Source: a virus
DNA length: 64,000 bases
Direction: 5' to 3' (one strand)
Virus record (IMG/VR): IMGVR_UViG_3300032070_000613
Location: 32,001 to 96,000 of that record
The notes below the pieces were generated by a model. The model was not told the origin of the DNA and made no database searches. It worked only from the letters and a program-made list of their open reading frames with translations. Both the position numbers and the translations under genes were made by a program. This document shows positions 541-30,500 of the stretch, in pieces; positions within the stretch are counted from its first letter, which is position 1, and each line of letters begins with the position of its first letter.

Positions 541-2985
541 ATGAGACAGATAGTATACGTAAATTCTTTATGGGGTGACAATGCCTTTTCAGGGGATCTT
601 CCCACCCCTGTTAAGACTTTGTCTCAGGCTATAGCTCTTGTATATGAGGGTGGTACGATAGTACTGCAGACAGGTGATGCGGGGACTTCTTACGGGTCGG
701 CTATTTTTACAAAGAATGTGACGGTTAAAGCCGCCTATGGGGCTGTTCCCTATGTAGGTACTCTCACGTTTAGTAATGCTCAGGGACTTTTTGAGGGTCT
801 GAATTTTGACGGTTTGAAATTTGGTGGTATCTCTCAGGGGATAGTCGTAGATAATCCTGATTTGGGGTCGGTGATCGTAAGAGATTGCAGGTTCACGGAT
901 GTAGAGACGGCGATCGATCTGAAAAGAGTACAGTATGTCAGTGTACATAGAAATAATTTTTTGGGTCATAAAGCGGGTATCAAAGTAGATGTCGCTCAGG
1001 AAGTTTGTCTCAGTTCGAATATTTTTAATGGAGGGTCTCGGTCTGTAGAAATAAGTACCGTACAGAGGCTGGATCTTTGGCACAATACCATATACGGGGC
1101 GTCGACTATAGTCGCGGGCACTTCTCCCAATCAGAATTTGAGAATAATTTATGTGACTCTCACCTCTTTTGATATTCTCTATAAAAGGATACAGCTGCCG
1201 GGGTTCGCGGTACAGGGGATGAGCGGTCAATATGAGGTCTCAGTAAACTCCGTCAATGGTCCGGCGTTCCAGTATAGTGTCGATTATACGGTACAGGCTT
1301 TTGGATCTATAGTGAGTTGGGATGGGCTGGCGCTCCAGCAGCAGCTGTCCGCGGGGGATATGATACGGATCATGTATTCTGAGGACCAGGATCCGGGTGG
1401 TGGGGACGCTATACGTGTCATGAATGTGGGGGATGAAAATAGCCGTATAGATTCTAACAGTATCACGGGTAGGATATCGGATATAGATATAGGAGTGTTC
1501 TTTAATACTCCCTTAAAAATAGGCTATAATAATTTTTACAAAAATGTGAAATGGTGGGACGGGGCCACGCCTACGGGGGCTACCGGGCTGAATAATATAA
1601 ATGGAGACCCATTATATCGAGATCCGGTGGGTAGTGATTTTCATCTACAGTATTTAGGGATATCGGGGACCTCTCCTAACATCGATGCGGCTGATCCTGG
1701 CAGATGGATAGACATTTATTCTGAAATGGGTGTTACGAGTATAGGGGGTCATTATACGGCTCCTGTAGCTGGTATCCGCAGTAATGTAGCTCCTTTTGAT
1801 AGGGACATCGATTATGATTTTTATAATCGAGGTGTCACGGGTATAGTAGGCACTACAGGCGATATAGGGGCTCTGGAGTTCAATCAGCATGAGACTGCCC
1901 TAGGTAACTATGTGGCGGAGAGAGGATACGATATAGCGCAGCCTGGCACGGCTACAGGTCCATACGCCACACTCGATCGTGGGTATGCTCGGGCGGGAGA
2001 CTCGGATCTTTTTGTTTCCACCAATTTTGTACCGTATCAGATAGGGGTCACGGGTATATATGCGGTCCCTATCGCGGGTCCGTCCTACGGTCGATATCAC
2101 AGTAAAAATATTGTTTTGAGTGGTAGTGATCTCAGAGTAGGTCATACTACCGGTAATGATATCACCTATGTGTATTCTTCTTATCCGGCTTATGAGACAG
2201 GGCTCGTATATGTAGGACCGGATTCTGGAGCAGGAGTCACGGGGACTTTTGGTAATCCCTATCGGACTATTACGGAGGCGCTGACTGCAGGGAGTTCATA
2301 TGTTTTAGTGAGACCGGGATTTTATCCGTCTTTCCAGGGGCAGACGGGAGTGAGTTTGGCGGGTGTAGAGGAGCTCAGTACTATTTCTTTAGGGTCTCAG
2401 CTCTACAGTAGTTTTGTTACCGGGTCCTGGACGGGTGTAGGGACCTATACGACGAGTAGTTCTACGCTCACTTTATCGGATGCCGTTGATATGCGGAGTG
2501 AGTTCAGTTTTGATCGTGGTATTGATCTCAAGTGTACTACCAGCTCTACTAGTGATACTTTATGTGTAGGTATTACCAATGATACGGACAGTGTATATGC
2601 GGTCCTTGATAGAGTCACTAAAAACAGTGTCATAGGCTATGGAGTGACCGGCCCTATTCATTATGATGTCTACAAAGCATATACGGGGCCTGCTGCATTT
2701 TCTGATGTGAGGGTGCATATCACTTTAGAGGGGGCTGATTTCAGGGTGACGCTCCGTAATCCTTATATAAACAGGACCTATAGCGGCACACTGGATTCAT
2801 ACTATACTGATCCATGGCGATTATTTTGTAGGACGCAGGGTGTGGGTGTCACTGGTATAGTGAGTGATATTTATTTGATGTCGGATCTTTTTCATGGTAT
2901 CACCGGTGTTTTAGACGCACAGATCAGTAGGAAAGTTTTTGGAGTGTTAGGGGTCACAGGTTTGAACAATACTAGGACTATATAA
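541..2985 (+). CDS. Right-handed beta-helix (pectin-lyase-like) fibre/spike protein
   Basis: N-terminal YVN..GD...P.KTLSQAI motif, recurring as YATLDRG and PYRTITEAL; beta-helix rungs; SPNIDA...DIGALE; many GxTG motifs. Confidence 0.65.
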   Translation: MRQIVYVNSLWGDNAFSGDLPTPVKTLSQAIALVYEGGTIVLQTGDAGTSYGSAIFTKNVTVKAAYGAVPYVGTLTFSNAQGLFEGLNFDGLKFGGISQGIVVDNPDLGSVIVRDCRFTDVETAIDLKRVQYVSVHRNNFLGHKAGIKVDVAQEVCLSSNIFNGGSRSVEISTVQRLDLWHNTIYGASTIVAGTSPNQNLRIIYVTLTSFDILYKRIQLPGFAVQGMSGQYEVSVNSVNGPAFQYSVDYTVQAFGSIVSWDGLALQQQLSAGDMIRIMYSEDQDPGGGDAIRVMNVGDENSRIDSNSITGRISDIDIGVFFNTPLKIGYNNFYKNVKWWDGATPTGATGLNNINGDPLYRDPVGSDFHLQYLGISGTSPNIDAADPGRWIDIYSEMGVTSIGGHYTAPVAGIRSNVAPFDRDIDYDFYNRGVTGIVGTTGDIGALEFNQHETALGNYVAERGYDIAQPGTATGPYATLDRGYARAGDSDLFVSTNFVPYQIGVTGIYAVPIAGPSYGRYHSKNIVLSGSDLRVGHTTGNDITYVYSSYPAYETGLVYVGPDSGAGVTGTFGNPYRTITEALTAGSSYVLVRPGFYPSFQGQTGVSLAGVEELSTISLGSQLYSSFVTGSWTGVGTYTTSSSTLTLSDAVDMRSEFSFDRGIDLKCTTSSTSDTLCVGITNDTDSVYAVLDRVTKNSVIGYGVTGPIHYDVYKAYTGPAAFSDVRVHITLEGADFRVTLRNPYINRTYSGTLDSYYTDPWRLFCRTQGVGVTGIVSDIYLMSDLFHGITGVLDAQISRKVFGVLGVTGLNNTRTI

Positions 2986-4361
2986 TGGCACGGCCACATA
3001 ATTTTCTCGACAACTATGGGCGACCTGACTTCAAACTACCCTATCGGTGGAATGATGACACGCCTCTGAAGATGCCGCTAGGGCCTAAGAGTGTCCAGGC
3101 TACCAGTCCGTATCTCATAGGGGTGATAGATATCCGCTGGGACAATCCGACTATTTATGCCGAGCATAATGGGCTGCAGGTGCTGGGGGTGAATATCTAT
3201 CGGGCATATGATAGTCCTGAGTCTACGTATACTCAAATCAATCCCAGTCCGATAGGTGCCCTTTATTATAGGGATCAGACACGGGAGGTTTTGGCGTCCG
3301 CGGAGGATCCTGTATCTGGTGGGAGTTTCATAGCGGGCACGAATGCCACGGGAGACTGGATTATCCATACCTATCACAAACCGATTATTATACCTGGTAC
3401 GAATGGAAAGATAGCGGAGCACCCGAAGCATGTGGTAGTGCAGATAAAGCCCACTGCGGTGGATTCGTTTCAGACGGTGCCCGCGTGGAGGGTGGTGGGT
3501 GAAACTGGTGAAGTATTTTTAATAAATCGAAAAGTCTACAATAACATCACCAATAGATTAGATGATCCGATACTCCCTATATTATCTCAGGGTGGGGAGA
3601 TCAGGATATCGTATACGTATATTGATGGGTGGATACAGACTGACATCAACAGAAAAATTTATTATAAAGTCACGACGGTGGCTCTTGATCCGGAGTCGTC
3701 GACTCTTATAGAGACTCCTCTCAATGAGGTGGAGGCTGTCAGTTTATATGACATGGAGCGTATAGATTATATCTGGGCGGAGGCTATACGCCGGAACCGG
3801 TGGATACTCGAGCAGGCCGGGGAGCGGGTGAAAGTTTTCATTCGTAAATGGGCTGGAGAGAAATGTCCGTGTTTTGATGAGCAGTATGGGCAGGGGAAGA
3901 ATGATTGTACCTTATGTTTTGGTACCGGAATAACATCCGGTTTCGAAGGACCCTATCCAATTATTATCGCCCCTCCAGAGGCTGAAAAAACGGTACAGTT
4001 ATTAGACATGGGTTTACATGTGAACTACGACTGGAATTCGTGGACCTCGGCGTATCCTCTCCTCAACGACCGTGATTTTATCGTACGTCAGAATAACGAT
4101 AGATTTTCTATAGCTCATGTGAATTCGCAGGGGGCCCGCGGTGCTATTTTTCAGCAGCATTTTATGTTGGCACCTTTGGATCAGCAGGATATACGTTATA
4201 AGGTGCCTATTAATGGCGGCCTTACAGTGCCCGCGGCGTGGAATGCGTACAGGACCGGTAAACCCACGGACGCCAGCCCGACTATACCTGATAAACCTGA
4301 GATACCGGAGCAGTATCAATTGAAAGGAAGAACTGTCAGTTTCGAGTCGATAGTATATTGA
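2985..4361 (+). CDS. Putative neck / head-tail connector protein with Zn motif
   Basis: GERVKVFIRK..G.KCPC...C..CFGTG; Fn3-like N-terminus (IRWDNP..GVNIYRA); lies upstream of tail genes; TAATG overlap with the previous gene. Confidence 0.55.
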   Translation: MARPHNFLDNYGRPDFKLPYRWNDDTPLKMPLGPKSVQATSPYLIGVIDIRWDNPTIYAEHNGLQVLGVNIYRAYDSPESTYTQINPSPIGALYYRDQTREVLASAEDPVSGGSFIAGTNATGDWIIHTYHKPIIIPGTNGKIAEHPKHVVVQIKPTAVDSFQTVPAWRVVGETGEVFLINRKVYNNITNRLDDPILPILSQGGEIRISYTYIDGWIQTDINRKIYYKVTTVALDPESSTLIETPLNEVEAVSLYDMERIDYIWAEAIRRNRWILEQAGERVKVFIRKWAGEKCPCFDEQYGQGKNDCTLCFGTGITSGFEGPYPIIIAPPEAEKTVQLLDMGLHVNYDWNSWTSAYPLLNDRDFIVRQNNDRFSIAHVNSQGARGAIFQQHFMLAPLDQQDIRYKVPINGGLTVPAAWNAYRTGKPTDASPTIPDKPEIPEQYQLKGRTVSFESIVY

Positions 4362-4377
4362 CAAAAGGAGAATAACA

Positions 4378-4755
4378 ATGCTGGAATATAAACTCGCGGA
4401 TGGATCAATATTTATGCTGGATAATTTAATCAGTCTGATTATTACCATAGGTGCTGTGTATTATATCTGTTATAGAGAGGCTAATCAAAAGGACAAGGCG
4501 GCGCATGCAGCGCTGTCGGCTCTGATAGTCCTCAGTACGCTGATACTGTTGCATTTGGCTGATTTGAAAGCCTATTGGTGGATCGCTCCGGTGATAGGAA
4601 CTGTTTTAGGTTTTGGTAAAGAACTGTGGGACAAGATAAATCCTAAAAAGAAGCTATTTGATTGGAGAGACATAGGAGCAGACATGGTAGGCGTGATATG
4701 GATTACCACGGTGTATTTTTTATCATTCTACATACATAGCAATCGTATGCACTAA
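4378..4755 (+). CDS. Small membrane protein, YfiM/DUF2279/VanZ-like
   Basis: AGGAG RBS; about 4 hydrophobic helices; DK..H, KELWD and DWRDIGADMVG signature. Confidence 0.55.
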   Translation: MLEYKLADGSIFMLDNLISLIITIGAVYYICYREANQKDKAAHAALSALIVLSTLILLHLADLKAYWWIAPVIGTVLGFGKELWDKINPKKKLFDWRDIGADMVGVIWITTVYFLSFYIHSNRMH

Positions 4756-4767
4756 GATACTTAAATC

Positions 4768-4798
4768 ATAGAAAAATATCCTTTCGGAATTTTTCTAT
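4768..4798. terminator. Bidirectional hairpin between convergent genes
   Basis: ATAGAAAAAT-A-TCC [TTTC] GGA-ATTTTTCTAT inverted repeat. Confidence 0.6.
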
Positions 4799-4844
4799 AA
4801 ATCAAGCTAAAACTCTGGTTTTTAATGCCAGAGGACTCTATATC

Positions 4845-5033
4845 TCAATTTAGAGTTTTTACTATGCCACACAAAGAGTCTGAGTCATTTAAAAATTTTA
4901 GAAGCCTCAAACCCATTGCTTCCAATGCATGGATAAGAGCATTTTTAATTTCCTTAAGCTCTAACAGTGTAGCATTTCTTTTCTTTTTAGGATTAAATCT
5001 TACGCTCAGACCTAGTGACTCTGAGCAGCCCAT
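4845..5033 (-). CDS. Small hypothetical protein (62 aa), the only plausible minus-strand gene
   Basis: MGCSESLG...VKTLN from ATG at 5033; fills an otherwise empty gap and converges on the 4768-4798 hairpin. Confidence 0.4.
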   Translation of the reverse strand: MGCSESLGLSVRFNPKKKRNATLLELKEIKNALIHALEAMGLRLLKFLNDSDSLCGIVKTLN

Positions 5034-5157
5034 AAATTTAATGTCAAAGAACAGAAGGAACTTTTTAAATATAGTATAGGGAGCAGAAAAAATCAAATGA
5101 TTTAATTTTATTGAATAATCAATAGAATTTTTTATTTTAGATTGGTCGGAGAAACAT

Positions 5158-5173
5158 AATAAACTCTTAATAT
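5158..5173 (+). promoter_or_regulatory. Recurrent phage promoter-like motif
   Basis: AATAAACTCTTAATAT; the core CTCTTAATAT recurs at 9593, 10141 and 41995, each intergenic. Confidence 0.65.
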
Positions 5174-5222
5174 ATTTTTGAATAAATACAAGATACATCT
5201 TTACTCGAAAAGGAGTCCCCGT

Positions 5223-6113
5223 ATGCCTTTTAATCTCAAAGAAGCTGCAGAAAATTTATTGAATGTGGCGAATGCTCTGGAGAAAGAGGCATTCGATAGG
5301 ACATTTTTTGTTTGCCAAAGCTGCAATCACACTGCATCTCTCACCTCGATCAATGCCAAAAGGAATAAAGTCGCAAAAGAGATGGGTGTGAAGAATGTGA
5401 ATACCGTGACCGTGAATGAGAAAGTATCCTGCCCGGCATGTGATGGTGTCCTGGAATATGTCCCCACAGATGAGAGCAGTAAATACTATGTGGAGGCTGC
5501 TGAGGGTGCTCCTCTTGAGATAGCGCCTCCATCTGATGTATCGCCGGATATGCCTAAAGATGAGCTACTCCCGCCTCCTGAGAAGAAGAAACCTCCGAAA
5601 GAGGAGGCTCCAGAGGATACCGGTAGTATTTTTGCACCTGTCGATGAGAGAGAAAAGGATGAGGAGCTCAATTTAGATTTTCCTGAAGGGGAAGGTAAAT
5701 CTGAAGATGAGCCCCCTGAGATGCCGCCTGAGGGTGATAAACCTCCTGAGATGCCGCCTGAGGGTGAGAAGTCCCCTGAGATGTCTCCTGAAGGGGATAA
5801 ACCTCCTGAGATGTCGCCTGAGGGCGAGAAGTCCCCTGAGATGCCTCCTGAAGGGGAGAAGCCTCCTGAGATGCCTCCTGAAGGGGATAAACCTCCTGAG
5901 ATGTCACCTGAGGGTGAGAAGCCTCCTGAGGAAGCTGAAATGCCTCCTGTGGTTGAGGAAGAAGTACCGCTTCTAGAGCCTGAGAAGAAGCCGAAAAAGA
6001 AGAAGGAAAAAGTAGAGTTCCCTAAAGAGGACGTGCCGAAATTTGAGAAAATGCCAAAAGATGCTAGTGATGATGCAGCCTATCAGGCATCCCTTAAAAA
6101 GTACATGTTCTGA
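5223..6113 (+). CDS. Zn-finger protein with Pro/Glu-rich repeats; possible internal head or scaffold-like protein
   Basis: AAAGGAG RBS favours ATG 5223 over the ORF-track start at 5178; CQSC...CPAC; 10-aa repeats. Confidence 0.6.
   Translation: MPFNLKEAAENLLNVANALEKEAFDRTFFVCQSCNHTASLTSINAKRNKVAKEMGVKNVNTVTVNEKVSCPACDGVLEYVPTDESSKYYVEAAEGAPLEIAPPSDVSPDMPKDELLPPPEKKKPPKEEAPEDTGSIFAPVDEREKDEELNLDFPEGEGKSEDEPPEMPPEGDKPPEMPPEGEKSPEMSPEGDKPPEMSPEGEKSPEMPPEGEKPPEMPPEGDKPPEMSPEGEKPPEEAEMPPVVEEEVPLLEPEKKPKKKKEKVEFPKEDVPKFEKMPKDASDDAAYQASLKKYMF
5712..5930 (+). repeat. 30-bp coding tandem repeat, 7 full units plus a partial unit
   Basis: Unit (C/T)CNCCTGAGATG(C/T)CNCCTGARGGNGA(T/G)AAR encodes (P/S)PEM(P/S)PEG(D/E)K. 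Confidence 0.95.
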
Positions 6114-6148
6114 ATGTTTCGATATGCATATTCAAATAAGATCGAAAT

Positions 6149-6838
6149 ATGATTTTAGTGATAGGAAACACTCCTCAAAAGGTAGAACTTAAAGATCTTG
6201 GCGATTATATATACTATAAACAACAAAAAATTTTTACAGATTCGCAGTATAATCGATCGCAGGATCTTCAGAGAGAAATCCAAAAAGGGTCTTTAACGAT
6301 ACTCAAAAGAGCCGACGATAAGAGCGGCTCTTTTGATATACCCTCTGTAGGCTATTCCTCGGTATCTGCGGACAAATCTCCTGTGACGGATTTTTCTAAG
6401 TTGGATACTCTTCTGGAGCGTATTAATAGTCTGGAAGAGTCGATCAATGCCAAATCGACCCTTTCTCCTGAGGCTCATAATGATGTCATCAAATCTCTGA
6501 TTGAGAAGGTGACTCGTTTGGAGAGTGAGCTCATCGCCGGTAATAATGGTCAGAGTTTGTCTATATTGCATGATGCTATTAAAAAATTGGAGGATAAAGT
6601 AGGTCGCGGGGCTGATGAGACTATACTCAAGAGACTGGAGGATATCTTAAATAGGGCTCCTGCTGCGGCATCGTCTGTTGAGCGTAAAGAGGAGACGAGA
6701 CCTGAGGATGTGTATGTGCCCACGGTCACTGTGGAGGATGCCAATACGCATATTAAATTGGATATACGGACTATTGGTGGTGGGGATGATGTGAATGACT
6801 CTTTGAAAAAACTGAAAGAATTAAAATCTAAATCTTAA
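6149..6838 (+). CDS. Coiled-coil protein, putative partner of the actin-like ATPase
   Basis: Several heptad segments (LLERINSLEE, LIEKVTRLES, ILKRLEDIL); C-terminal amphipathic DVNDSLKKLKEL; 15 bp upstream of the actin gene. Confidence 0.6.
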   Translation: MILVIGNTPQKVELKDLGDYIYYKQQKIFTDSQYNRSQDLQREIQKGSLTILKRADDKSGSFDIPSVGYSSVSADKSPVTDFSKLDTLLERINSLEESINAKSTLSPEAHNDVIKSLIEKVTRLESELIAGNNGQSLSILHDAIKKLEDKVGRGADETILKRLEDILNRAPAAASSVERKEETRPEDVYVPTVTVEDANTHIKLDIRTIGGGDDVNDSLKKLKELKSKS

Positions 6839-6853
6839 ATACAGGAGGTTTAC

Positions 6854-7858
6854 ATGTGCGCAGTCGGACTTGACATCGGGACATGTTTTTTAGTTTCTGC
6901 TACTCAGGATGAGAGTGGTCAGACACAAATTAAATCGATTAGGGACGCATTTATTGACATTGAGGCAGATGCCTCCACCATTAATATGCTGAAGATGTCC
7001 AACGTGTCTTATGTACATGACGGTAATAATATAGTAGTGGTAGGAGAATCGGCGCTGAATCTAGCGAACTTGCTAAAAAGGGAATCACGCAGGCCAATGA
7101 GCCAGGGGGTAATATCTCCGGGAGAGCGCGATGCTGAGCGTATGTTGGCTATTTTACTTAAGAATATTCTTCCGGGCCCTAAAGTGGAGAATGAGAATGT
7201 ATTTTTTTCGGTACCTGCTAAATCTGTAGATCGTGAGATGGATGTCATATACCATACAGCTATAATAAAAAAAATTATTGAAAATTTTAATTATAAAGTC
7301 ACACCTCTTAACGAAGCGGCTGCATTGGTATATTCTAATTGTAGTTCTGAAGGATTTACAGCTATGGCCAGTAGTTTTGGAGCTGGATCTGTAAATACTG
7401 CCATAGTATATAAAACCATGGTAGGTATGGCTTTTTCATTGGCGAGATCTGGGGATCATATTGATGCCTCCGCGGCTCGTGCTGTAGGGTCTACAGCTAC
7501 CAGGATGATGGCTATTAAAGAGCTGGGTGTGAATCTCCTGGATCCTACTGAGGGAGATCCTAAGCAGATACGAGAGCGTGAAGCTATTATAATGTACTAT
7601 CGCAATTTGATACGGTATGTCATTGAGAATATAGCTAAAGAATTCAAGAAAGATAATAGTAAAATAGAGCTCCCGGATTCCCTGCCGTGGATATTGTCTG
7701 GGGGATCCACAAAACCTAAGAATTTTCTTGAATTTTTCAAATCTGAGTTTGAAAAAGAAAAGAGTTCATTTCCACTTAAGGTGTCCGATATTCGTATGGC
7801 TGGCGATGTTTTAAATGATGTCGCTAAGGGATTGCTCATAGCGGCTATGAATGAATAG
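6854..7858 (+). CDS. Actin-fold ATPase (MreB/FtsA/ParM superfamily)
   Basis: AGGAGG RBS; phosphate-1 GLDIGT, connect-1 NEAAA, phosphate-2 SFGAGSVN, adenosine ILSGGST, connect-2 AKGLL. Confidence 0.85.
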   Translation: MCAVGLDIGTCFLVSATQDESGQTQIKSIRDAFIDIEADASTINMLKMSNVSYVHDGNNIVVVGESALNLANLLKRESRRPMSQGVISPGERDAERMLAILLKNILPGPKVENENVFFSVPAKSVDREMDVIYHTAIIKKIIENFNYKVTPLNEAAALVYSNCSSEGFTAMASSFGAGSVNTAIVYKTMVGMAFSLARSGDHIDASAARAVGSTATRMMAIKELGVNLLDPTEGDPKQIREREAIIMYYRNLIRYVIENIAKEFKKDNSKIELPDSLPWILSGGSTKPKNFLEFFKSEFEKEKSSFPLKVSDIRMAGDVLNDVAKGLLIAAMNE

Positions 7859-7921
7859 GCATTTAATGATTGAAATTTTTGTGTGATAGAACCTATATTT
7901 TTACAGTTCTTTTTGTTGTGT

Positions 7922-7937
7922 AGTATTCTTTTAATTT
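7922..7937 (+). promoter_or_regulatory. Variant promoter motif upstream of the candidate ncRNA
   Basis: AGTATTCTTTTAATTT matches CTNTTAAT; core starts 23 nt before the first helix. Confidence 0.45.
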
Positions 7938-7950
7938 ATTTATTATAGAT

Positions 7951-8088
7951 GTACAGGTCTGGAAGCCTGTGCTCTATCCTCTCATACAGAGTAATAGATA
8001 GCTAACATAACCGAGAGTCAGAGATAGCCTTTTCTGTAGGGGTGTCTTCTCTGTAGGGGTCTTCCAGCCCCGCCTCGGTTTATTTTTT
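7951..8088 (+). ncRNA. Candidate structured ncRNA with a loop-loop (kissing) interaction
   Basis: Helices 7951-7958/7965-7972, 7974-7978/7997-8001, 8009-8015/8074-8080, 8019-8024/8048-8053, 8056-8060/8067-8071; loops CTGGAAG and CTTCCAG are complementary; followed by a T-tract. Confidence 0.55.
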
Positions 8089-8098
8089 AGGAGTGTAG

Positions 8099-8114
8099 GA
8101 TAACCTATTAATTT
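8099..8114 (+). promoter_or_regulatory. Variant promoter motif
   Basis: GATAACCTATTAATTT upstream of the 8153 gene. Confidence 0.5.
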
Positions 8115-8152
8115 TTTCTATATATTATAAATTTTAATTTTAAAGAAGCCCT

Positions 8153-9583
8153 ATGCAAAATGACCTACTCAAAAATGTAAAGTATCGTTTACTTGACGAA
8201 TTGCGATATGCTGTCGAGAAGCATCAAGTTTACGTTGACAAAGTGAGAATTTATCATAAATTTCCAATGCAAGAAAGACCCAGTATTGGAATTATTTTAC
8301 GCAACGCCTCTTCCAGCAGAATAAAACTCTCCGCGGACGACAACGCCGGTACTCTCAAAAGTCACCTGACTCTGGCTAAAGCTGAGAATAAACCCTCGGG
8401 GTGTCTGGACTGGGTATGGGAAGATGCCGTGCATATGACCGAGCTCCAGCAGGATGAGGACCTCTCTAGTCAGATCCAGGGTACATCCACCTACGGTCAA
8501 AATCGTTTTTTCTATACCTCTAAAAAACCTATCATATCAGGAAAAAATAATACGGTCGTCGCTGATAATTTCAGGCAGGTCTCTCTCACCCTAAACGGTG
8601 AAAATGTGCTCGCTGAATTCATAGACGGTAAAAGAGGGATAGTAGCTCTCCCTCAGGCACCCGTGGTAGGAGACTCTCTAAAAATCAGCTATTACTATAA
8701 TAATCTCACTCCTCCTGGCAGGTATTATTTAGAGATCATATCCGCTACTCAGTTCGTCATAGATCCTTTCTATCAGGTACGAGACGAAGAGCTAATAATA
8801 GATACTACAGGATTAGAGACTACAGTCTCGCTGGCTCATGGTAATCTATATGGAGATTTTGATGTCCTCTATACCATGAAGACTAAATTCAGCAATAAAA
8901 TCTATCTGGAAAAAAACATAGACTACACTATTACGACAGCCGGAGTAATAACTTTTCTGAATCCACTCCCTGTAGGCACTACTCTCTATGCCAATTATCG
9001 GTGGGGTGGCGCTACCATGGGACCGTTTGATATCCCTGAGCCATTCCATTATAATAATACTGCGCTGCCGGGGGTCATACTGGCATTCAGTAATCAGCTG
9101 GACGTAGGGACTCGGGTGGTGGTGCTGGTATATCCTCAGAGGGAGCCCTCAGCCATTATTTATAGCGGGCATTATAAGATGGTTTTTGAGATAGACGTGT
9201 TTGCTAAAGACCCCATACAGCTCCCGGATCTCACAGACCATCTCATATCAGAGATATGGTCTAATCGCAGGCTGCCTCTGATCAGTGAGGGTTTGACCAT
9301 AGAGGAGATGGATCCTACGGGTGAGTCCGAGGAGGTCTACGATAACAATACAGGGGATTTGTATTATAAAAACAGTATCACTTTACAGATGATGACAGAG
9401 TGGAAAAAGTTTGTACCGCTCAGTATAGAGCTCATGGATTATGATACCAAACTCTATCAATATATCACGACAAAAAAATATGTGATCACGAATCAGAATA
9501 AAGTGCTGGAGATGAAACTAGTGCCGTGGACGGTGCCTTTTGAGGTGAAATATCCGAAAGTAGGATATGCCCGTCTGATTTGA
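8153..9583 (+). CDS. Putative tail terminator / tail completion protein with inserted beta-domains
   Basis: ERPSIGIILR N-terminus and FEIDVFAKD...LTDHL C-terminal pattern; immediately upstream of the sheath; insert resembles the sheath inserts. Confidence 0.5.
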   Translation: MQNDLLKNVKYRLLDELRYAVEKHQVYVDKVRIYHKFPMQERPSIGIILRNASSSRIKLSADDNAGTLKSHLTLAKAENKPSGCLDWVWEDAVHMTELQQDEDLSSQIQGTSTYGQNRFFYTSKKPIISGKNNTVVADNFRQVSLTLNGENVLAEFIDGKRGIVALPQAPVVGDSLKISYYYNNLTPPGRYYLEIISATQFVIDPFYQVRDEELIIDTTGLETTVSLAHGNLYGDFDVLYTMKTKFSNKIYLEKNIDYTITTAGVITFLNPLPVGTTLYANYRWGGATMGPFDIPEPFHYNNTALPGVILAFSNQLDVGTRVVVLVYPQREPSAIIYSGHYKMVFEIDVFAKDPIQLPDLTDHLISEIWSNRRLPLISEGLTIEEMDPTGESEEVYDNNTGDLYYKNSITLQMMTEWKKFVPLSIELMDYDTKLYQYITTKKYVITNQNKVLEMKLVPWTVPFEVKYPKVGYARLI

Positions 9584-9586
9584 TCG

Positions 9587-9606
9587 AATAATCTCTTAAT
9601 ATAGAT
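9587..9606 (+). promoter_or_regulatory. Recurrent promoter motif
   Basis: AATAATCTCTTAATATAGAT; 19 of 20 identical to 41989-42008. Confidence 0.7.
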
Positions 9607-9653
9607 ACCATTTTAAATTCATATTCACATCTCATATAAAAAGGAGTGTCGGT

Positions 9654-10124
9654 ATGCCGATTTATACGTACAAGTGTGAGGCGTGCAATTTTATTTTCGA
9701 AGAGTTGGTGTCGTACGATAAAAAAGATGATGTAAATTGTAATTTATGTAAAGGTAAAGCTCATAGGGGAGCGGCGGAGACATTCGGGATAAATACGACT
9801 CTGAATCCAAAAACAGATACGATTTATAGTCCAAAAGAAATAGATAAAGTAGTGGGGGCTGAGTCGGAGAAAAAGTGGGCTGGATATGATGAGCGCTGGC
9901 GGCAGCGATATGAGGCCCGGCAGCAAAAGAGATGGAAGGGTATGACTCCTACTCCCGTGAATATACCAAAGGATCCTGACGGAAAATATACGCCTATCAT
10001 GCATTTAGGGAATAGTAAAGACAGGGAGTTGAGGAGAGAATATTCTACGGCGTTGCAGGAGCATAGAGCGGAGAGAAAAAAGAGAGGTGAGGATCAGTTT
10101 GATGCGCCTGGGGCGATTCTATAG
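9654..10124 (+). CDS. FmdB-family zinc-ribbon protein
   Basis: MPIYTYKCEAC..FEELV...CNLC; AAGGAG RBS. Confidence 0.8.
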   Translation: MPIYTYKCEACNFIFEELVSYDKKDDVNCNLCKGKAHRGAAETFGINTTLNPKTDTIYSPKEIDKVVGAESEKKWAGYDERWRQRYEARQQKRWKGMTPTPVNIPKDPDGKYTPIMHLGNSKDRELRREYSTALQEHRAERKKRGEDQFDAPGAIL

Positions 10125-10251: not shown

Positions 10252-13212
10252 ATGGCTATAGGACCTCTTGAAAGTTTTGTATTCCCGGGCGTATTAGTCC
10301 GTACTATCAATGAGGCCGCGGGAGCCTCCACTGCAGGTGACATACGTTTCCCAGCTATTATCGGAGTGTCCGCTGAAGAAGTCCGTGTAGCTGATTTTGA
10401 ATTGGTGAGAGGATCCTCTGCTATAGCGGACAACATTATCCTCGATGAGCTGGTGACAGGGATTTCTATATCTACACCGTCTGGATATACTCCGGGTTGG
10501 ATAGGTGGGGCGCAGGGTAGTGTGAAATCGTTCCGCGTAGCCAATGTCCCCATCGTCACTGGTGATGGTTCTGGAAAAGTTGGTACATCTCCCTCCAATG
10601 TAATAGTCACCGTCAATAATGAAAATGTAGCCGTCAATTCAATAAACGGGCTCACCGGTCAGGTAGATCTGGTCGTGATACCTAAAGACACCGATGTTGT
10701 TCGTGTCAATTATTATTTCAAGAGACGTGATACGTATATCGAGAACGAGAATCTCATTCTCCAGGCTGACGGATCCAATAAGATTTTCAAAGTCCATAGC
10801 GCTCGTATAGTGAAGGGTGATAACAGTGGTACGTCGGCTACGGATGCCGATATCAACGGTACGGTAAAAATTCTTTATGATCCTACTCCGACCACTAATC
10901 CTGGTGATGAATTTGAGAGGACTGTAAAAGTCATCGATGTTAAAGTGGATGGTGTATCTGCCACTATTACCGCTTTGGACGGTTCTACGGGTAGAGTCAC
11001 TCTGCAGACTGCTCCTACAGGAGGTGGCAGTCATACTCTTACGGTGACGTATTTCACGAATATCTGGCAGGACACATATGATATTCTACCCGCTCCTGTT
11101 GTGAATAGAGTCATCGAGGTGGGACTCAGCCAGGACACATCGGATTTCTCCGTGGGTAATGATTGTGTCCTGTCTGGAGATAATAAGCTGCACTGGGGTA
11201 ATTCTTATCAGAAGACTCAGGGTGTCTACACTGTAGGGTCTACGGCTGTAATAAACAACATAGTGCCTTCTATCACAGATACTAAAGTTTATGGTAGAGT
11301 GGCTGCTCCTGCAGTGCCTAGTGGTGTGGATGCGGATAATATTCCTCTGAACACTGATGGCAACAAAGTTTTCATTCTACCCACAGCTCCTGTTGATTCG
11401 AGTGGTACTGGAGTGGCTACAGAAGATACCACATTGATTACGGCTTATGTAGGTTCGACATGGGCGTTAGCCTATGCTGGTGGTGCAGTGACAGTCATGT
11501 CTATCAGTGGCAGTCAGATTACACTAGCGGTATCTCCTTCGAATGCCCTCTCGGAAAAAGTATATGTCACCTATTATGAGAACAACATAGTAGATGATGA
11601 CTGGCTGTTTACAGTGCGTGTACCTGGTATTGCTACAGTGGGTAAGTATACGGTTTCTTCTTTGCTCCATGGTAATGCATTATCTGTGACGCAGGCTGCG
11701 GGTGGGACAGCAGTTTTTGCTTATGTAGGTGGTTATATTAATTGTGAAGTAAATCCTCTTATAGCATCTGTAGAACGTGTAAGATGTACATTTGATGGCT
11801 CTAACAGTTTTACGGTTACTTCTATGGTTGGAACGACCCTCACTCCCTGGGTGCCTAACGGTCGTACCGGTTCGGTCATTACCTATAATCAGAACATAGG
11901 TAAACTCGGTAAAACGTATATCGATCCTACGACTGGGTTCAGAGTGACGTTCGATGCTTCAACAGTGCCCGCAAATAGTACTTATGTGGAATTTGATGTA
12001 GGTGATCCTACCGTATCTAATGCTACTCAGAGACTCTATATCACTGCCAATACCCCTATCGTAAAAGTGATCCCGGGTATGTATATCACGGTATCGACGA
12101 CCTCTGGTAGCTATGCTGATGATACAGTAGTGCTCAGCACCTATAATAAGAGCGGTAATGAGCCCAATGTAGGTGATATGTACTATGTCACATTTGATAA
12201 GGCTAAGACTGATTACACTACGAAATTCCTGACGAATATGCGTGATGTAATCAAATATTTCGGGCCGATCGACATCAACAATAAAGTGACCATCGCCGCT
12301 AATCTGTGTTTTCTGAATGGTGCCCGTGCAGTGGCTATCAAGCAAATTTTAAGAGTGACGGGTGGTACGGACGCGAGTGTGCAGGATTACATTGATGGTA
12401 TCGATGCTTTTGGTGAGCCGATGCCGAACGGTCTGCGTCCGTCTATGGTACAACCGCTATCGACAAATTCGGAGGTACAGAGTTATCTGAAGACCTCTAA
12501 TGCTATACAATCCAGTATCCGGTATAGGAACGAGCGTACTAGCGTTATAGGTTTTGCGGTCGGGACTACTTCTGATGAGGTTATTCAGAAATGTAAGAAT
12601 CTCGCTACCGAGAAAGTCACGGCAGTGTATCCTGATGGTGCTATCATTGGTATCGTCGACACCTACGGTAATGAAGTCGAATATATCGTCGATGGATCGA
12701 TGATTGCTGCCGCGGTGGCTGGGCGTGATATTTCTCCTGTCTCAGATATTGCTACTCCTCTGACCAATGCCACGATCGTAGGTTTCAAGAGACTCTACAG
12801 GAGATTGGATAATGTTACTGCGGCGTTGGTGGCGAATGCCGGGTGTACGGTACTTGAGGAGCAGACTCCGGTTATCAGGATTTTGATGTATTTGACTACA
12901 GATATGTCCACATCGTTGACGAGGGATCCTCGTATTGTTGAGGTGAAGCATTCGATTCAGCAGGGTTTGCGTACTGCTTTACAGCGGTATATCGGCTCCA
13001 AGAACCTGCCGAAGATGCAGCCTCAGATCAGGGATACGGTGGGGTCTTATTTCAAGCAGCTCAAGAAGAATGAGATCATTGTGGATTTCACGGGTATCAA
13101 TGTTAAGCAGAACGAGAGTGATCCGAGTACGGTGGATGTGGAGGCATATTACAGTCCAGTGTTCCCGTTGAACTGGATTGTTGTGACGTTGAACCTGAGA
13201 CAGAGTCTGTAA
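10252..13212 (+). CDS. Contractile tail sheath protein
   Basis: N-terminal FPGVLVRT, PAIIG; C-terminal IAAAVAG, LANAGCTVLE-like segment, YIGSK, VDVEAYYSPVFPLNWIVVTL. Confidence 0.9.
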   Translation: MAIGPLESFVFPGVLVRTINEAAGASTAGDIRFPAIIGVSAEEVRVADFELVRGSSAIADNIILDELVTGISISTPSGYTPGWIGGAQGSVKSFRVANVPIVTGDGSGKVGTSPSNVIVTVNNENVAVNSINGLTGQVDLVVIPKDTDVVRVNYYFKRRDTYIENENLILQADGSNKIFKVHSARIVKGDNSGTSATDADINGTVKILYDPTPTTNPGDEFERTVKVIDVKVDGVSATITALDGSTGRVTLQTAPTGGGSHTLTVTYFTNIWQDTYDILPAPVVNRVIEVGLSQDTSDFSVGNDCVLSGDNKLHWGNSYQKTQGVYTVGSTAVINNIVPSITDTKVYGRVAAPAVPSGVDADNIPLNTDGNKVFILPTAPVDSSGTGVATEDTTLITAYVGSTWALAYAGGAVTVMSISGSQITLAVSPSNALSEKVYVTYYENNIVDDDWLFTVRVPGIATVGKYTVSSLLHGNALSVTQAAGGTAVFAYVGGYINCEVNPLIASVERVRCTFDGSNSFTVTSMVGTTLTPWVPNGRTGSVITYNQNIGKLGKTYIDPTTGFRVTFDASTVPANSTYVEFDVGDPTVSNATQRLYITANTPIVKVIPGMYITVSTTSGSYADDTVVLSTYNKSGNEPNVGDMYYVTFDKAKTDYTTKFLTNMRDVIKYFGPIDINNKVTIAANLCFLNGARAVAIKQILRVTGGTDASVQDYIDGIDAFGEPMPNGLRPSMVQPLSTNSEVQSYLKTSNAIQSSIRYRNERTSVIGFAVGTTSDEVIQKCKNLATEKVTAVYPDGAIIGIVDTYGNEVEYIVDGSMIAAAVAGRDISPVSDIATPLTNATIVGFKRLYRRLDNVTAALVANAGCTVLEEQTPVIRILMYLTTDMSTSLTRDPRIVEVKHSIQQGLRTALQRYIGSKNLPKMQPQIRDTVGSYFKQLKKNEIIVDFTGINVKQNESDPSTVDVEAYYSPVFPLNWIVVTLNLRQSL

Positions 13213-27535: not shown

Positions 27536-30500
27536 ATGGGATCGGAAATATTTAAATTAAAATCTCTCTACATGGATGATACGGTAGTCCGCGGCTCTCG
27601 CCTCAGCATAAAAAATGCTAAAGAGACTAAGACTATACTGACTAATCCCGGAAACGACCCCCAGGTAAAAACAGGGGAGACAGGCGTCAATGTCGAATAT
27701 ATCATACAATCCTCTCTGATAGGAAACGATCTCAAAGGTCAGGGCACGTTCACGAATAACAGCGACGTGGTCCGGGACTACAGCGGCCCCCAGAATATAA
27801 AACACAACGATATCATACGCCTCGACTCAGATATCACTTTCTATAATGTCACCGGGATACAGGGCACCGACATATATCTGCAGGAAAAATACGTCAAAAA
27901 AGATACGAGCACTCCTGATGTGCAGACAGGACCCGCTACAGTAAGAAAAGTAAAACTGGATAGCGTCCAGTATGAAAAAGTCAGAAACCCAGAACCCTCT
28001 ACCTATATCTATTACGACAAAGATAATATCGCCTGGGGTATAAAAGGTATACAACCCACCGGACCTTTTACGGCTCCTACAGCGGCAATGTCTTTTGAAA
28101 CCGGCATGAATATACAGTTTTTGCCGGGTACGAGCAGCAGTAAACCCGATCTCCTCACTATAGGCAGCGTCTATAAAACACTCGTAGATAATAACTCCAG
28201 CCCTATAGCCGATATCAGCCTCAGTCCTCTACCATATCCTCACGAGAGCCTGCAGGTCTATGAGGGACCAGCTAAAGGCAAACTGGATAAAAAAATCGAG
28301 GGTGAAGACTACGTCGTAAACTATAGCCAGAGTCCTGAATATAAAACTCCTATGCCACCCTACGAAGAAAGACAGGGGGCCTATTTAAAATTCCTGGATA
28401 AGCTGACTAATGAAGTCCAGGTGCCCTCGATCAATGCTACGTTTGAGGGCAATATAGCTATAACCAAACAAACAGGAGGGACTAATCTCGTCACTCCCGT
28501 GAGCGATATCATCCCCGGAGATAAGTTTTCTATAAAAGTGGGAGATGCTGAAAAAAGAACCAATGCGGAGTATATCGCCAACTATGCTGCCGGTATAGTG
28601 ACATTCGTGAAACATCGCAACTCTGAATATCTCATCGACAACATATCCTATATCAAAAAAATAATATGGGACGGCATCAGTGTCATCAAAGGCGTACCCG
28701 AGGGACAGGTACAGAACGTCTCTAGCCTGGTGATACCGCCTATATCGGGGCTGGCTGGAGTGAGCGGAATGGTCTGCTATGAGGACACAGACCAGAATAA
28801 TCTGATCAGAGACACCGATTATACGATAGATCCTGAGTCGGGGGCTATCGGTCTCACGACGCCTTTAAAAAGTACTGAATCCGTCCTGGTATCGTATTAT
28901 GTAGAGGGAGAGGATGTCACAGAAGAAGCCGTGGCCCTGAATGATATGCGGGTGAATAAATACCCGGTCATATCCGGATCTGTGACTATCACTAAAAAAT
29001 TTAGAGCGACTCAGGATAATCAGGAGACTACAAGTACAAAAATCCTGATAGAGGGACAGGACTATACTTTTTATTATACTACCGGCAGGATATCTTTGCT
29101 GAATGTCTCCGCGGAGGAGGAACTGCTATCACTCCAGGCAAACTATACTCCCATGGCCCAGATAAACTGCATCCTGCAGTCCGTCCCTGGAGACAACCTC
29201 AAATACAGAATGACCATCGTCGATGATATAGTCAAAGTGGTGGATGTAGAAAAATTGATTTTCAAAATAAATAATCCTGTGGTGTCCGCGCCGGTAAAAA
29301 ATCTTTTTCCTGATCAGTCTAACAACAAAAACTATACGTTCTCAGGTACGGTACTCCCTGGCAGTCTCCTATGGGTGAAAAATGAATCTGGTACTAAAAA
29401 TTTTGATGTGACGGGATATGGCTATGAAGATCTATCCAGGCAGATAGACCTGGATGAGACGCTGAGCGCTCAACGTCCTGAGACAGAAGAACTCATAGTA
29501 GCTACCTATAGTTTTGAGTCTGAGGTGCTCCCCTACGCTCCTGCTATAATCCTCAATGTGATATTCAATAGTGGGGACGACGGTTTTATAATCGAGGGTT
29601 TCAATAGGACCGATACACTCAAAGAGGGTATGATCCTCCGTGTGGATAATTTTGATCCCGAGCATACGTTCTATTTTAAAATCAAAGAAGTCTCGTATAA
29701 ATACGGCAATACTCTGGTGAAGCTATATGGCTCTTTCTCTGAAACCATAATCAACCCTACATTTTATTTGTTTGATGATACCGTGACCTGGGTGGATCTA
29801 CCGAGCGGGACTACGATAGACACTACAGCCCCTATACAGGCTGAGTCTATCATCCTCCACGGGAATCCTCTACAGATCAGTCAGAGTATAAAAAAAGATA
29901 CCATGCTGATGATAAACGATCAGCAGATTTATTCGGTGTCCTCCGTGACTACTGACGCGAATAAAACTACCATAGGGATATTCCCGTTTTTAGAACAGCC
30001 CGTCACAGGCACTATACGGTACTCGAGTCTGCCGGTACACACTGAGGGAGACACCAGGCTCCCCTCTCAATACCTCACCCTCCTGAGTCCTACGCAGCCA
30101 GCGTTTACTCTGAGCTATCAGGCTCCTACGGGGTTCGAGGGTAGCGCCAAAATCCTGATAGATAATAAAAAAATTGTGATTACAGAGGCCATCCGCGGTA
30201 TCGTGAATCCCGTGGCATATACCTACACGATAGCGGACTACACTGACCTATACTCCCTGGCAAAAGCCATCCAGGCGACTCCCTCTACCTATCGGACCAA
30301 TGTCCCGTGGGCGGGAGTGCCTGACTATAATCCGTTTACGATCTCTCCCGCAGGCGGCGCTCAGGAGGATTATTATCTCTCGGCAGGGGCCTGGAGTGCT
30401 GATTTGATCATACCGTTTGAGGACAGTACGCCTATAGATCTCCCCTATACGATCCAGATAGTGCCCGAGCTATTCAAATGGACTCTCCTCCAGGCTTTTG

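What the first reader, a model, noticed from the sequence alone, without database searches (positions are those of the whole stretch)
6149..7858. Actin-fold ATPase plus coiled-coil partner embedded among neck and tail genes
Seen: all five actin-superfamily motifs in a 334-aa protein, directly after a coiled-coil protein ending in a short amphipathic helix. Both lie downstream of the same promoter motif (5164) as the structural genes, and the RNA candidate follows. Known: described phage cytoskeletons are PhuZ/TubZ tubulins and ParM/AlpC-type actins linked to DNA segregation. Inference: this is a late-expressed filament and adaptor system for capsid or tail transport or assembly-site organisation. 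The Zn-finger/PE-repeat protein (5223) and the RNA may be further components. I saw no parC-like iteron array nearby.
Basis: partly seen in the sequence, partly recalled or inferred. Interest (0 to 1): 0.75.

Follow-up and report, generated by a model that had tools for sequence, protein, structure and literature searches.

The report
Huge-phage actin with its own adaptor
A lineage of very large bacteriophages carries, next to its tail-sheath genes, a highly conserved actin-like ATPase of the recently named Volactin family plus a dedicated adaptor protein, which points to an undescribed phage-encoded actin cytoskeleton whose cargo is still unknown.

Summary
Window 6854-7858 encodes a full-length actin-fold ATPase: Pfam Volactin at 199 bits, AlphaFold pLDDT 95, and nearest solved folds MamK, MreB, BeeR and actin. 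Window 6149-6838 encodes a partner with a small N-terminal domain, a helical middle and a short C-terminal amphipathic helix.

It is not a recent capture of host MreB or FtsA. The phage actins that sit beside the sheath module form one well-supported clade inside the Volactin family, and cellular relatives are at most about 42% identical.

The pairing is conserved. 68 of 80 related viral loci, anchored on the downstream gene, have the actin just upstream. The partner's C-terminal module is present in 57 of 60 loci with the actin and in 0 of 5 relatives that lost the actin but kept the partner's N-domain. The same module ends the gene upstream of cellular Volactin genes in several phyla.

I read this as an actin filament plus adaptor system made together with tail genes. 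Identity is solid. The function, organising virion assembly, is inferred. The RNA island is strain-specific, and the Zn-finger/PE protein is restricted to one subclade. I found no paper describing this system.

The parts
5164..5173 (+). Promoter-like motif CTCTTAATAT, about 50 nt upstream of the 5223 gene. The same motif precedes the genes at 9654, 10252 (sheath), 15222 and 42017.
   Evidence: Relatives carry a variant (AATAATC-N-N-TTAATA) at the same positions.
5223..6113 (+). First gene of the unit: an N-terminal Zn-ribbon domain, then PE-rich decapeptide repeats. Conserved only in the window's subclade.
   Evidence: (N-terminal ~95 aa are 35-60% identical in L002-L008 and L011). Absent from subclade 2.
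6149..6838 (+). Adaptor/partner. Parts: N-domain (aa 1-55), linker, helical/coiled-coil middle (aa 83-169), then a C-terminal module of a [FY][IV]P strand followed by an amphipathic helix (aa ~185-227).
6854..7858 (+). Volactin-family actin-like ATPase, 334 aa.
7859..8152 (+). Variable spacer holding a strain-specific RNA-like island. Relatives have a plain terminator, inserted ORFs or no spacer here. It is not a conserved part of the system.
8153..9583 (+). Conserved downstream neighbour, 476 aa. It abuts the actin gene in many relatives. A tail-terminator-like identity is a weak lead only.
   Evidence: Atlas score 0.90 to SP10_terminator/Gp37 clusters; not confirmed by Pfam.
9654..10124 (+). 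Zn-ribbon protein, syntenic between the 8153 gene and the sheath gene.
10252..13212 (+). Tail sheath protein, 986 aa.
   Evidence: Phage_sheath_1C; phrog_2839 at 1.4e-20.

Best explanation
Gene 6854-7858 encodes a phage-lineage member of the Volactin family of polymerising actin-like ATPases. Gene 6149-6838 encodes its cognate adaptor. They are transcribed as one unit from a promoter-like motif shared with the tail genes.

Shown here:
- Family membership, fold and intact nucleotide-binding motifs.
- A monophyletic phage clade.
- Tight, long-standing linkage to the sheath module.
- Co-occurrence of the adaptor's C-terminal module with the actin gene.

Inferred:
- The actin forms ATP-dependent filaments, as Haloferax volactin does.
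- The adaptor's C-terminal strand-plus-amphipathic-helix module binds the filament, in the way ParR's C-terminal helix binds ParM.
- The adaptor is probably oligomerised through its helical middle.
- Its phage-specific N-domain binds a virion-assembly component. This N-domain persists in the same gene slot in relatives that lack the actin.
- The filament therefore gathers or positions tail or neck assembly intermediates, or the assembly site, in the infected cell.
For: - Identity: Pfam Volactin 199 bits, full length. AF2 pLDDT 95 and pTM 0.91. The top 50 Foldseek PDB matches are all filament-forming actins (MamK, MreB, BeeR, actin, FtsA, ParM), with no Hsp70 or sugar kinase among them. Motif residues are invariant.
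- Conservation: the actin is among the best-conserved genes of the block, about 72% identical in relatives. The sheath is 60-64%, the 8153 gene 62-63% and the partner 39-42%.
- Inteins sit in its phosphate-2 loop in many homologues. Inteins typically occupy conserved catalytic sites.
- Phylogeny: the family is split from MreB and MamK-like proteins (99/96). The 10 actins in sheath synteny form one clade (98/91).
- Synteny: 68 of 80 loci anchored on the 8153 gene have the actin upstream on the same strand.
- Adaptor: the phage C-terminal profile aligns to the C-terminus of partners of cellular Volactins (hhalign E 0.001). It scores those C-termini above other genes in the same loci (Mann-Whitney p 1.3e-16).
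- Cellular partners carry membrane anchors instead of the phage N-domain (DUF7139 or a TM helix). This matches the published tip-anchoring of volactin filaments at the membrane (PMC10869688, read).
- The module is present in 57 of 60 loci with the actin and 0 of 5 loci without it that keep the N-domain. These represent 3-4 independent losses, all in the same direction.
- The unit is bounded by the promoter-like motif, and in relatives by a terminator directly after the actin gene.
Against: - No expression, polymerisation or binding data exist. The phage is uncultured.
- 'Late' timing rests only on a shared motif. The 141-kb record holds almost only + strand structural genes, so the motif cannot be contrasted with early genes.
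- The adaptor N-domain has no clear known fold. The best match is the YqbF N-domain (Foldseek E 0.39, VIA Z 4.2), so the cargo is a guess.
- The co-loss test has too few independent pairs for significance (sign test p 0.25).
- At least one complete 536-kb relative lacks the actin altogether, so it is not indispensable for building such virions.
- Some family members are fused to ParB-HTH or sit next to ParA. This fits DNA-related roles for other members of the family.
Confidence: 0.5

Rival explanations
1. A ParMRC/AlpAC-like DNA-positioning system. The filament moves or positions replicating phage genomes, or a plasmid-like prophage, and the partner acts as a DNA-binding adaptor.
For: - The known phage and prophage actin systems work this way (AlpAC of CGP3: PMC4446434 and PMC5539076, listed).
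- Other Volactin-family members are fused to a ParB HTH (P0194) or encoded next to ParA (Omnitrophota L017).
- One related record is classed as a provirus.
Against: - There are no intergenic iterons near the unit.
- The partner has no recognisable DNA-binding domain in Pfam or by fold search, and its N-domain is roughly charge-neutral.
- The unit sits inside the tail module under the tail-gene motif, not with replication genes.
- The partner N-domain stays in the structural gene order when the actin is lost.
Confidence: 0.15
2. Host-cell remodelling. The phage actin changes host shape, size or division late in infection to accommodate very large virions, analogous to volactin's role in Haloferax cell shape.
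For: - The only characterised family member affects cell shape and spans the cytoplasm between membrane sites (PMC10869688).
- The phages are very large (402-485 kb genomes), with a 986-aa sheath protein and a 3702-aa ORF in the tail region.
Against: - The phage adaptor lacks the membrane anchor that cellular partners have.
- Its N-domain belongs to the phage structural module.
Confidence: 0.15
3. A non-filamentous actin-fold ATPase acting as an assembly chaperone for tail or neck proteins, or a protein packaged into the virion for use early in the next infection.
For: - Its position is among structural genes, abutting the 8153 gene.
- The actin fold alone does not prove polymerisation.
Against: - All the closest solved folds are polymerising actins.
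- A family member polymerises in vivo.
- There is no substrate-binding domain like that of Hsp70.
Confidence: 0.12

Closest known systems
Volactin (VolA, HVO_2015) of Haloferax volcanii; Pfam PF25216
   Same: Same Pfam family (199 bits). Same clade relative to MreB and MamK-like proteins in the tree. About 33% identity to haloarchaeal homologues. The upstream partner gene ends in the same kind of C-terminal module.
   Different: Encoded by a huge phage inside its tail-gene module. It forms a separate phage clade. Its partner has a soluble phage-specific N-domain and a coiled coil instead of the DUF7139 membrane domain. The role is probably not cell shape.
ParMRC type II partition (ParM actin plus ParR adaptor plus parC)
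   Same: A two-gene actin-plus-adaptor logic, with a short C-terminal adaptor helix as the likely filament-binding element. This comparison rests on established knowledge of ParR-ParM.
   Different: A different actin family (only Volactin was returned by Pfam). The adaptor is encoded upstream and shows no RHH DNA-binding domain. No centromere repeats were found. The genes sit in a structural module.
AlpC/AlpA of Corynebacterium prophage CGP3
   Same: A phage-encoded actin-like protein with an adaptor (PMC4446434, PMC5539076).
   Different: AlpA binds alpS DNA sites and the system supports DNA replication and transport early in induction. Here no DNA sites were found, and the context and promoter motif are those of tail genes. 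Sequence relationship to AlpC was not tested because no reference sequence was available.
PhuZ/TubZ tubulin spindle of nucleus-forming jumbo phages
   Same: A phage-encoded cytoskeletal polymer in very large phages. PhuZ also delivers capsids (established knowledge).
   Different: PhuZ has the tubulin fold, not the actin fold. No Pfam Tubulin match was found in five related 402-536 kb genomes.
MamK / MreB
   Same: Closest solved structures (TM about 0.65-0.7).
   Different: Only about 17% identity. No phmmer hit to any PDB chain. Separated in the tree by long, well-supported branches.

Membership tests
Volactin family (PF25216) | Profile match above the curated threshold over the full length | tested here: met
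   199 bits against a cut-off of 35, covering residues 3-331 of 334. The same result was obtained on the genome record.
Volactin family (PF25216) | Actin fold with the five nucleotide-binding motifs | tested here: met
   AF2 pLDDT 95. Foldseek matches to MamK, MreB and actin. Invariant D7, G9, E154, S174, G176, G178, N181, G283, G284 and G326.
Volactin family (PF25216) | Groups with archaeal volactins rather than with MreB/MamK in a tree | tested here: met
   The split from the MreB and MamK-like outgroups has support 99/96. The haloarchaeal and Archaeoglobi homologues lie inside the same family.
Volactin family (PF25216) | Dynamic polymerisation into filaments | not testable with these tools
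   Shown only for the Haloferax protein (PMC10869688).
ParMRC type II partition system | ParM/StbA-family actin | tested here: not met
   The Pfam scan at E<=0.01 returned only Volactin. ParM is a low-ranked structural match (TM about 0.5).
ParMRC type II partition system | Centromere-like repeat array next to the operon | tested here: not met
   No intergenic direct-repeat array in 4700-8200. The only array is the coding PE repeat.
ParMRC type II partition system | DNA-binding (RHH) adaptor | tested here: inconclusive
   No Pfam or PHROG hit. The N-domain fold has no clear match.
MreB/Mbl (PF06723) | Profile match and clade membership | tested here: not met
   No PF06723 hit for this protein. 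It is separated from the MreB sequences of three genomes in the tree.
AlpC-type prophage actin | Sequence relationship to AlpC and an alpS-binding AlpA adaptor | not tested
   No AlpC reference sequence was available from the tools. Only the papers were listed.

The most novel reading that the evidence does not exclude
Huge phages of this lineage build their own actin cytoskeleton, dedicated to virion morphogenesis rather than DNA segregation. An adaptor's N-domain grips a tail or neck assembly intermediate, and its C-terminal module is the universal filament-binding peptide of the whole Volactin family. The same peptide would identify the still unknown membrane anchor of archaeal volactin (DUF7139 proteins) and of bacterial homologues.
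Probability: 0.3. Interest if true: 0.85.

Novelty: new variant of a known kind. Interest (0 to 1): 0.7.

Why it matters
Known phage cytoskeletons are the PhuZ/TubZ tubulins and ParM/AlpC-type actins, both tied to DNA. Here a different actin family is a near-core gene of a broad group of 400-500 kb phages. It is wired into the tail-gene module and has a non-DNA-type adaptor.

If it organises virion assembly, it would be the first actin-based morphogenesis system in a prokaryotic virus.

Independently of the phage question, the conserved C-terminal partner module gives a testable candidate for what anchors volactin filaments in archaea and bacteria. [quoted passage not shown]

Searches of the held library found no paper linking volactin or an actin to huge phages.

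Tried and rejected
- Recent host capture: rejected. The best cellular relatives are 32-42% identical. The four 'MAG' hits at 41-65% are huge-phage contigs with the same synteny.
- RNA candidate as a component: rejected. The spacer is variable, and Rfam found nothing.
- Zn-finger/PE protein as a general component: found only in the window's subclade.
- parC-like iterons: none found.
- Partner fold identification: Foldseek and VIA-wide gave no convincing match.
- Identity of the 8153 and 2985 genes: Pfam, PHROGs, a PDB profile search and the Atlas gave only a weak tail-terminator lead for 8153 and nothing for 2985.
- phmmer of the actin against PDB sequences: no hit.
- The first genome-contig scan with the 46-sequence alignment failed because no stretch was conserved enough. 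It was redone with a narrower alignment.
- Paralogue of the partner N-domain elsewhere in the 141-kb record: none.
- A complex prediction of the actin with the partner helix was not possible.

Full report
**What is there**

The window is bases 32001-96000 of a 141-kb IMG/VR virus record. CheckV rates the record 30% complete, which implies a genome of about 470 kb. Almost all genes are on the + strand.

Gene 6854-7858 has a strong ribosome-binding site and encodes 334 aa. Gene 6149-6838 encodes 229 aa. Gene 5223-6113 encodes a Zn-ribbon protein with PE-rich decapeptide repeats.

Downstream lie:
- a 476-aa gene (8153)
- a Zn-ribbon gene (9654)
- the tail sheath gene (10252-13212; Phage_sheath_1C, phrog_2839)
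- a tail lysin and further tail proteins

'Tail genes' is therefore verified. 'Neck' is not.

**The actin**

The protein matches Pfam Volactin end to end, at 199 bits against a cut-off of 35. It has no PHROG match and no phmmer hit to any PDB chain.

A 46-sequence alignment shows that the residues of all five actin motifs are invariant. The AlphaFold model is very confident (pLDDT 95, pTM 0.91). Its best Foldseek matches are MamK, MreB, BeeR, eukaryotic actin, FtsA and ParM, at TM about 0.65-0.7 and about 17% identity. No Hsp70 or sugar kinase appears in the top 50.

The characterised family member, Haloferax volactin, forms dynamic filaments that touch the membrane by their tips (PMC10869688).

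**Distribution and origin**

- The 5.8-billion-protein search found 396 homologues. The 120 listed are 58-97% identical, on contigs up to 469 kb.
- The exhaustive search found 887 clusters at 50% identity. These include intein-bearing forms, tandem double actins, and fusions to a ParB HTH or a Wzz/BY-kinase.
- In GTDB genomes, relatives occur in Omnitrophota, Planctomycetota, Magnetococcales, Desulfosarcina, Archaeoglobaceae, Halobacteria and Thermoplasmatales, at 29-42% identity.
- Four 'MAG' contigs at 41-65% identity (binned as Altiarchaeales, Legionellales, Lysinibacter and an uncultured bacterium) carry the phage synteny. They are phage DNA.

A careful maximum-likelihood tree separates the family from MreB and MamK-like proteins (99/96). 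It unites the 10 actins in sheath synteny in one clade (98/91). The actin of the 595-kb phage LR756511 sits apart on a long branch.

Recent host capture is therefore refuted.

**Synteny**

In seven viral loci the order is 2985 – 5223 – 6149 – actin – variable spacer – 8153 – 9654 – sheath. The actin, at about 72% identity, is better conserved than the sheath (60-64%) and far better than the partner (39-42%).

At 43% actin identity, the 485-kb phage LR745208 and three of the misbinned MAG contigs (L012, L039, L086) keep the order 2985 … partner – actin – 8153 – 9654 – sheath.

I then anchored on the 8153 gene instead. Of 80 viral loci, 68 have a Volactin gene at most about 3.7 kb upstream on the same strand, often abutting 8153. 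Three of the 12 without it have no upstream DNA to examine.

Four near-complete genomes (402-485 kb) have exactly one copy. One complete 536-kb genome has none. None of the five has a Pfam Tubulin match.

The actin-less loci are scattered over the 8153 tree: 7 changes, of which at least 5 are forced. This indicates repeated loss.

**Transcription unit**

CTSTTAATAT occurs 7 times against 0.68 expected. Five sites are intergenic on the + strand, ahead of genes 5223, 9654, 10252, 15222 and 42017.

Relatives carry a variant of the motif at the same places, and a hairpin terminator directly after the actin gene. The unit is therefore [motif] – 5223 – partner – actin – [terminator].

'Late' timing is an inference. 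The record holds essentially only structural genes, so the motif cannot be contrasted with early genes.

The 294-nt island after the actin gene in this window is not conserved.

**The partner**

It has no Pfam or PHROG match. 54 homologues were found, on the same contigs as the actins, and they diverge much faster than the actin.

The alignment shows a conserved N-domain, a variable heptad-rich middle and a strongly conserved C-terminus. The C-terminus is a [FY][IV]P strand, a short beta segment, then an amphipathic helix of the DSLKKLKELK type. The model agrees with this layout. Fold searches gave no convincing match; the best was the YqbF N-domain at E 0.39 and Z 4.2.

Three comparative results bear on its role.

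1. The gene just upstream of cellular Volactin genes ends in the same kind of module, although the rest of each protein differs:
   - an N-terminal TM helix in Magnetococcales
   - DUF7139 membrane domains in Halobacteria and Archaeoglobi
   - long proteins of unknown function in Planctomycetota
   - in Omnitrophota, a cluster of ParA – coiled coil – Volactin – second Volactin – 203-aa partner

   hhalign between separately built phage and cellular partner alignments aligns exactly the two C-termini (E 0.001, probability 21% over 41 columns). The phage alignment includes the partners from two of the misbinned MAG contigs. A C-terminal profile cut from that same alignment scores upstream-gene C-termini far above other genes of the same loci: 27% against 2.3% score above 5 bits, with Mann-Whitney p 1.3e-16. 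This p-value is not corrected for relatedness.

2. Among the 8153-anchored loci, 65 have an N-domain protein. The C-terminal module is present in 57 of the 60 with an actin. The other three show weaker versions.

3. The module is present in none of the five loci that lack an actin but keep the N-domain protein in the same gene slot. Uncorrected Fisher p is 6.8e-6. There are 3-4 phylogenetically independent pairs, all in the same direction, which is too few for a sign test (p 0.25).

**Interpretation**

The C-terminal module behaves as the element specific to the actin. The N-domain behaves as part of the phage structural module.

By analogy with the ParR C-terminal helix on ParM (established knowledge), the simplest model is a filament plus an adaptor that couples it to a virion-assembly component.

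Rivals remain open: DNA positioning, host remodelling, and a chaperone or packaged protein. They are weighed in the Rival explanations section.

**Novelty**

Phage actins with adaptors are known (AlpAC). Volactin itself is known. I found no paper that mentions an actin in huge phages (Al-Shayeb 2020, Iyer 2021 and a 2026 jumbo-phage review), nor one that mentions DUF7139.

This is therefore a new variant of a known kind. Its function is still to be shown.

Noticed in passing
L008:6001-8097 (IMGVR_UViG_3300028837_003833), and proteins P0125-P0267: Many family actins carry in-frame inteins with LAGLIDADG endonuclease domains. At least four insertion sites occur: after S174, after M179 and after N181 (all in the phosphate-2 loop), and after R198 just before the GDW motif. 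Each has C…HN|C junctions. I did not find inteins in actin homologues described in the papers I searched.
   Followed up: partly
L017:4405-9182 (Omnitrophota MAG); L062, L070, L074 (archaea); L042-L054 (Magnetococcales): Cellular Volactin genes sit in conserved small clusters. In Omnitrophota the order is ParA – coiled-coil protein – Volactin – second Volactin with an N-terminal extension – 203-aa protein ending in the partner helix. In Halobacteria and Archaeoglobi a DUF7139 membrane protein lies upstream. In Magnetococcales a small TM-anchored protein lies upstream. These are candidate volactin anchors.
   Followed up: partly
P0129, P0157, P0194, P0211: Unusual architectures occur in the family: tandem double actins (about 730-750 aa), ParB-HTH + Volactin (891 aa), and Volactin + Wzz/GNVR/ParA-like BY-kinase (1160 aa, Planctomycetota).
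   Followed up: no
L011, L012, L039, L086 (GTDB genome contigs): Contigs binned as Altiarchaeales, an uncultured bacterium, Legionellales and Lysinibacter MAGs carry the huge-phage sheath-module synteny. They are probably misbinned phage DNA or prophages.
   Followed up: partly
window 8153-9583 versus 10252-13212: Residues about 76-183 of the 8153 protein are 31-33% identical to a segment near the N-terminus of the sheath protein, in every relative examined. The two proteins share an inserted domain.
   Followed up: no
window 5223-6113: Besides the Zn ribbon and seven 30-nt PE repeats, homologues of this protein keep a short C-terminal motif of the FWKSVAKY type (AYQASLKKY in the window). This looks like another peptide-type interaction motif.
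   Followed up: no
window 27536-38644: A single 3702-aa ORF lies in the tail region. It may be a very long tape measure or a fibre.
   Followed up: no
L010 (LR756511.1, 595 kb phage) 8998-10017: A second huge-phage lineage has a Volactin-family actin (228 bits). It sits in a different gene context and on a long branch, which suggests a separate acquisition or deep divergence.
   Followed up: partly
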